DNA of 64,000 bases. It comes from Escherichia coli. GTDB taxonomy: Bacteria; Pseudomonadota; Gammaproteobacteria; Enterobacterales; Enterobacteriaceae. The stretch's first letter is position 1; every line of letters begins with the position of its first letter. Position numbers: made by a program. Shown here piece after piece: positions 55,301 through 58,300 of this stretch. Where the stretch lies: assembly GCF_050320075.1 (NCBI RefSeq), contig NZ_CP190018.1, one strand, 5' to 3'.

Positions 55301-58300
55301 CCGTGAGAACTTACTCTTCACCCACCGCGGCTTATCTGGACCGGCGGTGTTGCAAATTTCCAGCTACTGGCAACCGGGTGAATTTGTCAGTATCAATCTG
55401 CTACCGGATGTGGACCTCGAAACCTTCCTGAATGAGCAGCGTAATGCACATCCGAATCAGAGCCTGAAAAACACACTGGCGGTTCATCTACCGAAGCGGT
55501 TGGTTGAACGTTTACAACAACTCGGGCAAATCCCGGATGTTTCGCTAAAACAGCTCAACGTGCGTGACCAACAGGCACTGATTAGCACATTGACCGACTG
55601 GCGCGTACAACCCAACGGCACTGAAGGCTATCGCACTGCCGAAGTGACGCTCGGCGGCGTGGACACCAACGAACTCTCTTCACGGACGATGGAAGCGCGC
55701 AAAGTGCCTGGGCTGTACTTCATCGGCGAAGTGATGGACGTCACCGGTTGGCTGGGGGGCTATAACTTCCAGTGGGCGTGGTCGAGTGCGTGGGCTTGTG
55801 CGCAGGATTTGATTGCATGTCCGAGGACAATAAAGTTGTACACAAAGCACTAAAGTTGTAACCATTCTCAAAAAACGACGCTAATGTTGTATACTTACTG
55901 AATGTGTGGTTATAGGGTTGGAGACTATAAAATACACATATAGGTACGTATCAATGTCGTTTTTAGGGTACGATCATGGCTAGGGGTAGGCGTCTCAAAT
56001 CCTATTTGGATTATGAAAATGCGCTAGGTGACGGCATAGGAGTGGGCTATGGCCAAAGTTATCAGCCCTGGCTTAGAGCTCAGGACGTTAAATCCCGTGG
56101 AAACCGTTCGATAGTCTTTGGCCTTAAGACGTTTCGAAACCATCATCTCCTTTCTTCTGTCGAAAGTAACTTTTTCTATCTGGCTGAGTTTAATGACTCG
56201 GTGATTGATATCCGGGAACAATTCCCACTCTTTCCTCTCCGGCTTACCCAACAAATAGCAAATCATCTACATTTTCAACATCCTATGGTGAGGGGAGTAA
56301 GAGGAGTACCTGTCGAAGTTCTGAATGTTATGACAACCGATTTTTTACTGACCTTGAGAACTCCTGAAGGCGGACTTCGATACAAAGCTATAGCAGTAAA
56401 ACATAACGAGAGCATACCTGAACGCGAAGCCCAAAAACTTGAAATAGAGAGGATGTTTTGGCAGTTGATTGATGTTGAGTTTCAAATTTATGTTGGCTCG
56501 GAACTCAATAACGTCGTCGGTAAAAACATTTGCTGGGCTACTTCTGTATTAAGAGATGGTTCTGAATTTTATGATAAATATCCTCTTGATAAAATCCGGT
56601 AATGACTCCAACTTATTGATAGTGTTTTATGTTCAGATAATGCCCGATGACTTTGTCATGCAGCTCCACCGATTTTGAGAACGACAGCGACTTCCGTCCC
56701 AGCCGTGCCAGGTGCTGCCTCAGATTCAGGTTATGCCGCTCAATTCGCTGCGTATATCGCTTGCTGATTACGTGCAGCTTTCCCTTCAGGCGGGATTCAT
56801 ACAGCGGCCAGCCATCCGTCATCCATATCACCACGTCAAAGGGTGACAGCAGGCTCATAAGACGCCCCAGCGTCGCCATAGTGCGTTCACCGAATACGTG
56901 CGCAACAACCGTCTTCCGGAGCCTGTCATACGCGTAAAACAGCCAGCGCTGGCGCGATTTAGCCCCGACGTATCCCCACTGTTCGTCCATTTCCGCGCAG
57001 ACGATGACGTCACTGCCCGGCTGTATGCGCGAGGTTACCGACTGCGGCCTGAGTTTTTTAAATGGCGGAAAATCGTGTTGAGGCCAACGCCCATAATGCG
57101 GGCAGTTGCCCGGCATCCAACGCCATTCATGGCCATATCAATGATTTTCTGGTGCGTACCGGGTTGAGAAGCGGTGTAAGTGAACTGCAGTTGCCATGTT
57201 TTACGGCAGTGAGAGCAGAGATAGCGCTGATGTCCGGCGGTGCTTTTGCCGTTACGCACCACCCCGTCAGTAGCTGAACAGGAGGGACAGCTGATAGAAA
57301 CAGAAGCCACTGGAGCACCTCAAAAACACCATCATACACTAAATCAGTAAGTTGGCAGCATCACCTGAAACCCGATAATGTACTAGATAAATTCTGGCCT
57401 CAGATGACATCAGAAAGAATCATCTCAAGATCAACCTATCATGACGGAACGCAGGAGAGAAGCGAGCTGGTTGAGATCCTGAGCGACATTGTATCCATGA
57501 CGAGATAATGTATTAAATAAGCATCTCAGGTGCATATATTCCGGTCCTCAACAAAGGACCGGAGTACAGAGTAGTAAAAACCCGAAATTAATCGGGTTTG
57601 AATTATATAAAGATTAACCGACTCCCGCGCCCAGGAACGATGTAAAATCACGCTTGTCGTGACATTTCTACAATGTTTACTTTTGACTATCAAGCCATTT
57701 ATTCATCTGCTCAATTTCACCTTTTTGAGCTTTAATGATGTCCTGCGCGAGCTTTCTCATTTTCGGATCTTTTCCGTATTTGAGCTCGGTCTCAGCCATT
57801 GCTATTGCCCCTTCATGGTGCGCTACCATGCCTTTCGCAAAAGCCTTGTCGGGATCGGACTCATTTACGGCAGCCATCATTTTGTCATGCATGTCTTTCA
57901 TGCCAGCCATATATTCCTGTGACGAAGCCGAGGTAGACATATCAGTCATTTTCATTTCTGAATGTTCTGCTGAAATCGCTGGCAGGGATAACATTAATAC
58001 TGCAAATAAAGTGTTTCTGGCTTTCATAAAAAATATCCTTTTAGCGTTGATGCCCGTTAACTGTAGCAGAATCTGATAAAAATGCCCCTGTAGGGGGCAA
58101 AGATGTTGCCATATATCCGGTTACGGAAAAATCTATCAAGGAAATAAGGACAGCACAGATACTTCCCTCGCCGTCAGCCTGCACTGAGCATGCGACGATG
58201 CGCTTCGGCCATGGCCTGATGTGGGCCAGACTGACCGTTATTCATAAATTCATGGGCAACTGCAGCTCTTTCATGCTCATTCATTGCCGCTAATGACTTC

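What the first reader, a model, noticed from the sequence alone, without database searches (positions are those of the whole stretch)
57677..58027. Secreted Met/His-rich DUF305-type protein encoded at the head of the sil cluster
The 116-aa ORF has a signal peptide and motifs (MKMTDM, MAGMKDMHDKMM, HHEGAIAMAE) typical of the four-helix-bundle DUF305 metal-binding family. It lies immediately upstream of silE in the same orientation and is a plausible uncharacterised copper/silver-binding accessory protein.
Basis: inference. Interest (0 to 1): 0.45.

Follow-up and report, generated by a model that had tools for sequence, protein, structure and literature searches.

The report
Small periplasmic copper-binding protein beside silE
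The ORF is a real, already annotated gene for a small secreted copper/silver-binding protein of the CopM (DUF305) family that travels with the silver-resistance gene silE; a 91%-identical version has solved crystal structures, so the finding is correct in outline but ordinary.

Summary
The 116-aa ORF at 57677-58027 exists, on the minus strand, with the quoted motifs and a signal peptide. It hits Pfam DUF305 (E 9e-21) and NCBIfam "CopM family metallochaperone" above the curated cut-off. It is protein WP_000647571.1, annotated copM in RefSeq and identical in plasmid R478. The mature part is 90.6% identical to PDB 7VW0/7VW1/7VW2, "dimeric periplasmic protein", one entry bound to cuprous ions. That crystallised allele also sits next to silE on Klebsiella plasmids. 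The gene is under strong purifying selection (dN/dS about 0.1). It occurs in 831 of 5426 complete E. coli genomes, against 834 for silE.

Three points need correcting. The gene lies downstream (3') of silE at the outer tail of the silR-silS-silE arm, not upstream or at the head. The monomer is a single CopM repeat of three helices that dimerises, not a four-helix bundle. The protein is not structurally uncharacterised.

Relatives sit directly after copper two-component systems (cusRS, pcoRS), and one has a CusR box in front. In this window a conserved terminator separates silE from the gene, and no SilR box precedes it. Its in-vivo contribution to Cu/Ag resistance is untested in the literature I could search. 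Verdict: already known, low interest.

The parts
57677..58027 (-). copM-like gene: 116-aa precursor of a single-repeat CopM/DUF305 periplasmic Cu(I)/Ag(I)-binding protein (WP_000647571.1)
   Evidence: ORF. Pfam DUF305. NCBIfam NF049983 CopM, 119 bits against a cut-off of 90. 90.6% identity to 7VW0/1/2. RefSeq annotation copM. dN/dS about 0.1.
57968..58027 (-). signal-peptide coding part (residues 1-20, predicted cleavage ISA|EH)
   Evidence: Sequence inspection. A20 invariant. PDB constructs start at E21. Low pLDDT and a separate helix for residues 1-21. No signal-peptide predictor was available.
58036..58040 (-). Shine-Dalgarno AAGGA, 8 nt before the ATG
   Evidence: Sequence. AAAGGAT is conserved in 7 sil-linked loci.
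58060..58068 (-). conserved -10-like element TGCTACAGT (GCTACAAT in relatives); possible weak own promoter (inferred)
   Evidence: Conserved in the alignment of intergenic regions although dS is about 1.3. Not picked up by the consensus scan because the -35 is poor.
58083..58099 (-). intrinsic-terminator hairpin of silE (TGCCCC-CTACA-GGGGCA followed by TTTTTA), lying between silE and copM
   Evidence: Terminator scan. -11 kcal/mol. The hairpin is conserved, with a changed stem end (TGCCCC/GGGGCA here against GCCCCC/GGGGGC) and varying loops, in 7 loci.
57578..57599 (-). intrinsic terminator of copM (AAACCCGA-TTAATT-TCGGGTTT followed by TTTAC)
   Evidence: Fold -11.3 kcal/mol, z -4.8. Sequence.
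58174..58605 (-). silE (143 aa), the gene immediately 5' of copM on the same strand
   Evidence: ORF. RefSeq annotation.
58826..58841 (.). SilR/CusR box ATGACATCTTTGTCAT in the silE promoter region
   Evidence: Pattern scan, 0 mismatches. Sequence.
58850..61004 (-). silS (58850-60331) and silR (60324-61004), the two-component system whose 3' side the silE-copM pair follows
   Evidence: ORFs. RefSeq annotation.
56598..57365 (-). IS1 copy that bounds the island remnant just beyond copM
   Evidence: insA/insB ORFs. IS1 end sequences, and homology to R478 resumes at 57366. RefSeq annotation.
57366..57508 (+). 3' remnant of the OLD-family/TOPRIM ATPase gene, convergent with copM
   Evidence: RefSeq pseudogene annotation. 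The intact gene is present in R478. Homology boundary.

Best explanation
The ORF is the copM-like gene of the sil/CHASRI copper-silver island. It encodes a Sec-exported, cysteine-free, Met/His-rich periplasmic protein made of one 73-residue CopM (DUF305) repeat folded into three helices. Two chains pair into a helical bundle, and conserved Met and His side chains (M40, M43, M46, H47, M50, M51, M67, H70, H71, M77, M90) bind Cu(I), and probably Ag(I), inside it. In the cell it most likely buffers or chaperones periplasmic Cu(I)/Ag(I) alongside SilE, as Synechocystis CopM does. Its expression most likely comes from read-through of the SilR-dependent silE transcript past a moderate terminator, with or without a weak promoter of its own. 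Shown here: gene, family, fold, near-identity to the crystallised Cu(I)-binding protein, conserved ligand-type residues, and linkage to copper two-component systems. Inferred: which residues are ligands, Ag(I) binding, the buffering or chaperone role in vivo, and the mode of transcription.
For: Family: Pfam DUF305 E 8.7e-21; NCBIfam CopM 119 bits against a cut-off of 90. Structure: the mature part is 90.6% identical to PDB 7VW0/7VW1/7VW2. The AlphaFold model has three helices and matches 7VW1, 'dimeric periplasmic protein bound with cuprous ions', at TM 0.92-0.94 normalised to the target; Synechocystis CopM in Cu(I), Cu(II) and Ag forms comes next. The crystallised allele is the gene next to silE on Klebsiella plasmids. 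Eleven Met/His positions are invariant across 16 orthologues down to 56% identity, and there is no Cys. Selection: dN/dS 0.07-0.11. Linkage: silRS-silE-copM recurs in Cronobacter, Enterobacter, Kosakonia and Pseudocitrobacter while the far flank differs each time. The gene lies directly after cusS in Trabulsiella and after pcoS in Nissabacter and Pantoea. A perfect CusR box lies 131 nt upstream in Shimwellia. Co-occurrence with silE: 831 against 834 of 5426 E. coli genomes. Function of the family: Synechocystis CopM is periplasmic, binds Cu(I) with KD about 3e-16, and confers copper resistance (PMC4335983).
Against: No expression or phenotype data for this gene were found in the searchable literature. 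The 19-gene definition of CHASRI leaves the gene out (PMC4824010). In this window a conserved terminator stands between silE and the gene and no SilR box precedes it, so copper or silver induction is not shown. More distant relatives in Haemophilus, Neisseria, Proteus, Pantoea and Franconibacter are orphans with no copper genes nearby. I could not read the structure paper, so the exact ligand residues and any Ag(I) data are not verified.
Confidence: 0.85

Rival explanations
1. The protein is mainly a modulator of the copper sensor kinase (SilS/CusS/PcoS). It would report periplasmic Cu(I)/Ag(I) load to the kinase or damp it, much as CpxP acts on CpxA, rather than serve as a bulk metal buffer.
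For: In the enterobacterial clade the gene sits immediately 3' of a copper two-component system, whichever structural genes accompany it: silRS, cusRS or pcoRS. In Synechocystis, copM is co-transcribed with copRS (PMC4335983).
Against: Constitutive copM restores part of the copper resistance of a copR mutant, so it works without the regulator (PMC4335983). Many relatives are orphans with no kinase nearby. silE and pcoE occupy the same position and are described in the CHASRI paper as periplasmic metal-binding proteins (PMC4824010). There is no interaction evidence.
Confidence: 0.08
2. The gene is a passenger with a role unrelated to Cu/Ag, for example binding another metal. It stays next to silE only because it lies inside the mobile segment.
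For: The canonical 19-gene CHASRI description omits it. A terminator separates it from silE and there is no SilR box before it in this window. Orphan relatives exist. DUF305 proteins appear in papers on iron metabolism and iron starvation in diatoms (titles only).
Against: The orthologue crystallised with Cu(I). Linkage to copper systems arose in three different arrangements, sil, cus and pco. One relative has a CusR box directly upstream. Purifying selection is strong and co-occurrence with silE is near-perfect, while the DNA beyond the gene differs between islands.
Confidence: 0.05
3. The gene is transcribed constitutively from its own weak promoter (GGGGCA, 17 nt, TGCTACAGT) and is not part of the SilRS regulon. 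It would then act as a standing low-level periplasmic buffer.
For: A -10-like element is conserved downstream of the silE terminator. No SilR box lies in the 146-nt spacer. The terminator hairpin is conserved.
Against: The -35 is poor and the consensus scan found no promoter there. The hairpin is only 6 bp and -11 kcal/mol, z -1.5, so read-through is plausible. Relatives are placed under CusR-box or operon control.
Confidence: 0.25

Closest known systems
PDB 7VW0/7VW1/7VW2, 'dimeric periplasmic protein' (DUF305 domain-containing protein). I attribute these to Yang et al. 2022, J Inorg Biochem 229:111728, from the matching title and timing; the paper was not readable here.
   Same: Same gene family and same genomic position. 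The crystallised sequence is found at 100% identity directly 3' of silE on Klebsiella/Enterobacter/E. coli plasmids. It is 90.6% identical to the mature protein here, and all Met/His of the helical core are retained. The fold matches at TM 0.92-0.94 normalised to the target.
   Different: Nine substitutions: T28S, S31H, T32S, D45N, D48E, D58N, V68I, K89E, Q115H. One removes a His (H31) from the disordered N-terminal tail. The window carries the R478-type allele rather than the Klebsiella-plasmid allele.
Synechocystis sp. PCC 6803 CopM (PDB 5FEJ, 5FFA-5FFE)
   Same: DUF305/CopM repeat with the conserved M..HH..AI.MA motif and 33-35% identity. Periplasmic, Cys-free Met/His chemistry. Genetic linkage to a copper two-component system. 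High-affinity Cu(I) binding and copper resistance (PMC4335983).
   Different: CopM has two tandem repeats in one chain; the query aligns to chain residues 26-106 and 118-199. The protein here has a single repeat of three helices and must dimerise. In Synechocystis copM lies 5' of copRS, whereas here the gene lies 3' of silRS-silE.
SilE / PcoE (PF27346) periplasmic Met/His-rich metal sponges
   Same: Small secreted Cys-free Met/His-rich proteins placed 3' of a copper two-component system. In Trabulsiella, Shimwellia and Nissabacter the copM-like gene takes the position that silE or pcoE occupies elsewhere.
   Different: Not homologous: BLASTP E 0.026 over 36 residues, reflecting composition only. 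From general knowledge, SilE is largely disordered without metal, whereas this protein is a confidently folded helical domain.
CusF / SilF periplasmic Cu(I)/Ag(I) chaperone
   Same: Small periplasmic Cu(I)/Ag(I) binder encoded in the same island (silF at window 62607-62960).
   Different: Unrelated fold: from general knowledge CusF is a beta-barrel, against an all-helical fold here. silF is encoded inside the silCFBA pump operon. No evidence was found that the copM-like protein hands metal to the pump.

Membership tests
CopM family metallochaperone (NCBIfam NF049983) / Pfam DUF305 (PF03713) | Profile match above the curated threshold | tested here: met
   NF049983: 119.2 bits against a cut-off of 90, residues 39-112 covering model positions 1-73 of 73. 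PF03713: E 8.7e-21.
CopM family metallochaperone (NCBIfam NF049983) / Pfam DUF305 (PF03713) | Conserved Met/His motif in the helices (M..HH..AI.MA and the preceding Met-rich helix) | tested here: met
   M40, M43, M46, H47, M50, M51, M67, H70, H71, M77 and M90 are invariant in 16 orthologues. HHEGAIAMAE aligns with HHQDAIDMAE of CopM.
CopM family metallochaperone (NCBIfam NF049983) / Pfam DUF305 (PF03713) | Export to the periplasm | tested here: met
   The N-terminal 20 residues look like a Sec signal peptide, and the PDB constructs start at E21. This rests on sequence inspection only; no predictor or experiment was available.
CopM family metallochaperone (NCBIfam NF049983) / Pfam DUF305 (PF03713) | Binds Cu(I) (and Ag(I)) | not testable with these tools
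   Shown only for the 91%-identical orthologue through the entry title of 7VW1, 'bound with cuprous ions', and for Synechocystis CopM (Ag-bound forms 5FFD/5FFE).
Synechocystis-type CopM architecture (two-repeat, single-chain bundle) | Two tandem CopM repeats in one polypeptide | tested here: not met
   One stretch in NF049983, against two in 5FEJ/5FFA and two in the 246-aa Psychrobacter protein. The Pfam match covers model positions 61-151 only. The model has three helices.
Single-repeat dimeric CopM (7VW0 type) | About 96-residue mature chain of three helices, near-identical to the crystallised protein | tested here: met
   90.6% identity. Foldseek TM 0.92-0.94 normalised to the target, rmsd 1.1-1.9 Å. 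Helices at 34-54, 59-84 and 88-114.
Single-repeat dimeric CopM (7VW0 type) | Homodimer forming a helical bundle | not tested
   Only a monomer was modelled. The dimer is taken from the PDB entry titles and the six-helix count from the title of Yang et al. 2022.
sil / CHASRI copper-silver island | Conserved position within the island across independent acquisitions | tested here: met
   silRS-silE-copM recurs with different outer flanks: integrase, HNH/Tn3, IS1, OLD ATPase, chemoreceptor gene. Found in 831 E. coli genomes against 834 for silE. Listed as the terminal gene in one published CHASRI diagram (PMC8568146) but not in the original 19-gene definition.
sil / CHASRI copper-silver island | Cu/Ag-responsive expression through SilRS | tested here: inconclusive
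   SilR boxes lie before silE and between silR and silC, but none lies before this gene. A terminator follows silE. A CusR box lies directly upstream in the Shimwellia relative. No expression data were found.

The most novel reading that the evidence does not exclude
The small CopM protein may be a functionally required but overlooked twentieth component of the copper-silver island. It could be the folded partner that takes Cu(I)/Ag(I) from the disordered sponge SilE and passes it on, or a periplasmic co-sensor that tunes SilS/CusS/PcoS. Its repeated placement directly after three different copper two-component systems would then reflect a direct functional tie to the sensor rather than to the pumps.
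Probability: 0.15. Interest if true: 0.4.

Novelty: already known. Interest (0 to 1): 0.12.

Why it matters
The sil/pco island is a widespread mobile determinant of silver and copper tolerance in Enterobacteriaceae. Here silE and this gene are each found in about 15% of complete E. coli genomes. Inventories of the island usually stop at silE, so this gene is rarely counted even though it is as constant as silE. Knowing that it is a structurally solved Cu(I) binder helps annotation. It also points to a simple genetic test, deletion alone and together with silE, that no paper I could search has reported. Beyond that the finding adds nothing new.

Tried and rejected
1. silE paralogue: rejected. 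BLASTP E 0.026 over 36 residues, which is composition only.
2. SilR/CusR box in front of the gene: none within 2 mismatches in the silE-copM spacer of the window, and none within 3 mismatches in the comparable spacers of the sil-linked loci scanned. Perfect boxes occur only before silE and between silR and silC.
3. Consensus sigma-70 promoter in the spacer: not found by the scan. Only a conserved -10-like element was seen by eye.
4. Structured RNA in 57300-58900: no Rfam match at E up to 1.
5. Anti-phage defence role for this gene, silE or the flanking remnants: no PADLOC hits.
6. Literature on function: searches for DUF305+silE, CopM+silE, DUF305+copper, the PDB codes and CHASRI found no expression or knockout data. 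The CopM+silE search returned only unrelated papers. The structure paper (PMID 35066349) is not held.
7. Copper genes next to distant relatives (Haemophilus, Neisseria, Proteus, Providencia, Sutterella, Pseudomonas): no tblastn hits to Sil/Pco reference proteins at E 1e-8 and 40% coverage. The ORFs listed around 24 sampled loci were unrelated to one another. The MerR-family neighbour in Rodentibacter scores best as NmlR and is below the cut-off for CueR.
8. The antisense ORFs 57735-58076 (+) and 57659-57922 (+) are treated as shadow ORFs of the conserved minus-strand gene.

Full report
**Observation**

The ORF listing gives a 116-aa ORF at 57677-58027 on the minus strand. The quoted motifs MKMTDM, MAGMKDMHDKMM and HHEGAIAMAE begin at residues 25, 40 and 70.
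- The first 20 residues, MKARNTLFAVLMLSLPAISA, have the layout of a Sec signal peptide.
- A20 is invariant among 16 orthologues.
- The crystallisation constructs of the closest PDB entries begin exactly at E21.
- The mature 96 residues hold 12 Met, 4 His and no Cys.

The ORF is a genuine gene. Nei-Gojobori dN/dS is 0.10 against the Klebsiella allele, 0.11 against Cronobacter and 0.07 against Kosakonia, with dS of 0.57-1.4.

**Position**

silE (58174-58605), silS (58850-60331) and silR (60324-61004) are all on the minus strand. silC and silF follow on the plus strand. The transcriptional order is therefore silR-silS-silE-ORF. The ORF is 146 nt downstream of the silE stop codon, at the outer tail of the cluster.

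**Identity**

- Pfam gives DUF305 (PF03713) at E 8.7e-21, covering only model positions 61-151 of 151.
- NCBIfam gives NF049983 'CopM family metallochaperone', 119 bits against a curated cut-off of 90, as one full-length stretch of the 73-position model.
- Against PDB sequences, the mature part matches 7VW0/7VW1/7VW2 ('DUF305 domain-containing protein') at E about 5e-53, with 87 of 96 residues identical.
- Synechocystis CopM (5FEJ, 5FFA) matches twice, once per repeat.
- An AlphaFold2 model built from 16 orthologues has mean pLDDT 84, and above 90 for most of residues 34-116. It shows three helices at 34-54, 59-84 and 88-114.
- Foldseek returns 7VW1, 'Structure of a dimeric periplasmic protein bound with cuprous ions', and 7VW0 first, at TM 0.83-0.94 normalised to the target. 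The Cu(I), Cu(II) and Ag forms of CopM follow.

These entries were released in January 2022. Their titles match Yang et al. [quoted passage not shown] I could not read that paper, so linking it to the PDB entries is my inference. The protein is thus a single-repeat CopM that dimerises, not a four-helix-bundle monomer.

**Already annotated and widespread**

- The 1.5-kb region is 100% identical to E. coli chromosomes in which RefSeq calls the gene 'copM: CopM family metallochaperone' (WP_000647571.1). The same protein is encoded on plasmid R478.
- The gene alone is found in 831 of 5426 complete E. coli genomes, and silE in 834.
- At least 692 plasmids carry the silE-copM stretch.
- The crystallised sequence occurs at 100% identity on Klebsiella, Enterobacter and E. 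coli plasmids. In K. pneumoniae FDAARGOS_1314 it lies directly after silE in a silCF/silRS/silE cluster.
- The original CHASRI paper defines 19 genes and does not count this one (PMC4824010). A Salmonella paper draws it as 'DUF305' next to silE (PMC8568146).

**Comparative context**

- silRS-silE-copM recurs in Cronobacter (72% identity), Enterobacter plasmids (81%), Kosakonia (80-84%) and Pseudocitrobacter. The DNA beyond copM differs each time: phage-type integrase, HNH/Tn3, IS1, a chemoreceptor gene, or the OLD ATPase. copM is therefore the last conserved gene of the module.
- In Trabulsiella the gene follows cusS directly, with an 83-nt gap and no silE.
- In Kosakonia sp. S29 silE is missing. 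Its SilR box and 3' UTR remain upstream of copM.
- In Shimwellia a perfect CusR box, ATGACAACGTTGTCAT, lies 131 nt upstream of the gene.
- In Nissabacter and several Pantoea the gene follows pcoABCDRS, in the place usually taken by pcoE.
- More distant relatives at 45-63% identity (other Pantoea, Franconibacter, Haemophilus, Neisseria, Kingella, Proteus, Providencia, Morganella, Sutterella) are orphans.

**Regulatory anatomy in the window**

- Perfect SilR/CusR boxes lie at 58826-58841 (silE promoter) and 61075-61090 (silR/silC divergent region). None lies in the silE-copM spacer.
- The spacer holds an intrinsic-terminator-like hairpin at 58099-58083 followed by TTTTTA, at -11 kcal/mol.
- That hairpin is conserved in seven sil-linked loci. 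The stem end changes in a compensatory way and the loops vary, although synonymous sites are close to saturation.
- Downstream of it are a conserved GCTACAAT-type -10 element (TGCTACAGT here, 58068-58060) and a Shine-Dalgarno AAGGA.
- A second terminator at 57599-57578 ends the gene.

The simplest reading is partial read-through from the SilR-dependent silE promoter, with or without a weak own promoter. This is inference.

**Mechanism**

By near-identity to a protein crystallised with Cu(I), and by homology to CopM, the most likely function is periplasmic Cu(I)/Ag(I) binding. CopM is periplasmic, binds Cu(I) with KD about 3e-16, and confers resistance even without its regulator (PMC4335983). 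In the protein here a dimeric helical bundle would bind metal through invariant Met and His residues and buffer or chaperone it next to SilE. The protein is not a SilE paralogue.

Rival readings are a sensor modulator, a passenger gene, and a constitutive gene outside the regulon. They are listed with their tests.

**Verdict**

The gene order, the fold and the 'uncharacterised' label need correcting. The object is already annotated and structurally characterised. Only its in-vivo role in the island remains open.

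Noticed in passing
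window 58100-58173 (minus strand; silE 3' UTR): A block CCTT(A/T)TTTCCTTGATAGAT..TTCC..TAACCG lies just 5' of the silE terminator. It is conserved in seven sil-linked loci whose synonymous sites are near saturation. It could be a 3'-UTR regulatory element, a small RNA or a promoter-like site (TTGATA, 18 nt, TATATG). There is no Rfam match.
   Followed up: partly
window 55976-57508: An IS1 copy (56598-57365) has no matching target-site duplication. It joins a truncated tnsA (55976-56602) to the last 143 nt of the OLD/TOPRIM ATPase gene. The Tn7-like transposition genes present in R478 (tnsB, tnsC, tnsD and others) are therefore deleted, and the island next to yhiN is probably immobile.
   Followed up: partly
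L046, L049, L053, L057, L063 (Haemophilus, Kingella, Neisseria): Orphan copies of the small CopM gene have almost the same signal peptide (MKKLMTFI(A/T)LSA...) and N-terminal region. They sit in unrelated chromosomal contexts in Pasteurellaceae and Neisseriaceae, which suggests recent horizontal spread of the single gene among respiratory-tract bacteria.
   Followed up: no
L024 (Kosakonia sp. S29) 3785-4001: The silE coding sequence is missing, but its SilR box, promoter and 3' UTR with terminator remain directly upstream of the copM-like gene. This is a natural silE deletion that keeps copM.
   Followed up: partly
literature: PMC11349299, Table 2: A TraDIS screen of K. pneumoniae ECL8 lists a plasmid 'DUF305 domain-containing protein' (ecl8_05170) among 11 plasmid genes without transposon insertions. 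I did not verify that it is the sil-linked gene. A short gene can lack insertions by chance.
   Followed up: no
window 57535-57568: A strong hairpin (CCGGTCCTCAACAAAGGACCGG core, -20 kcal/mol, z -5.3) lies between the convergent OLD-ATPase remnant and copM. No U-tract follows it on either strand. Its role is unknown; it may be a stabiliser or a bidirectional stop.
   Followed up: no
L070 (Psychrobacter urativorans) 3226-4525: A two-repeat CopM (246 aa) lies next to a 161-aa membrane protein with a partial CopM-like C-terminus, just after pcoA/pcoB-like genes. This shows that the one-repeat and two-repeat architectures both associate with copper clusters.
   Followed up: no
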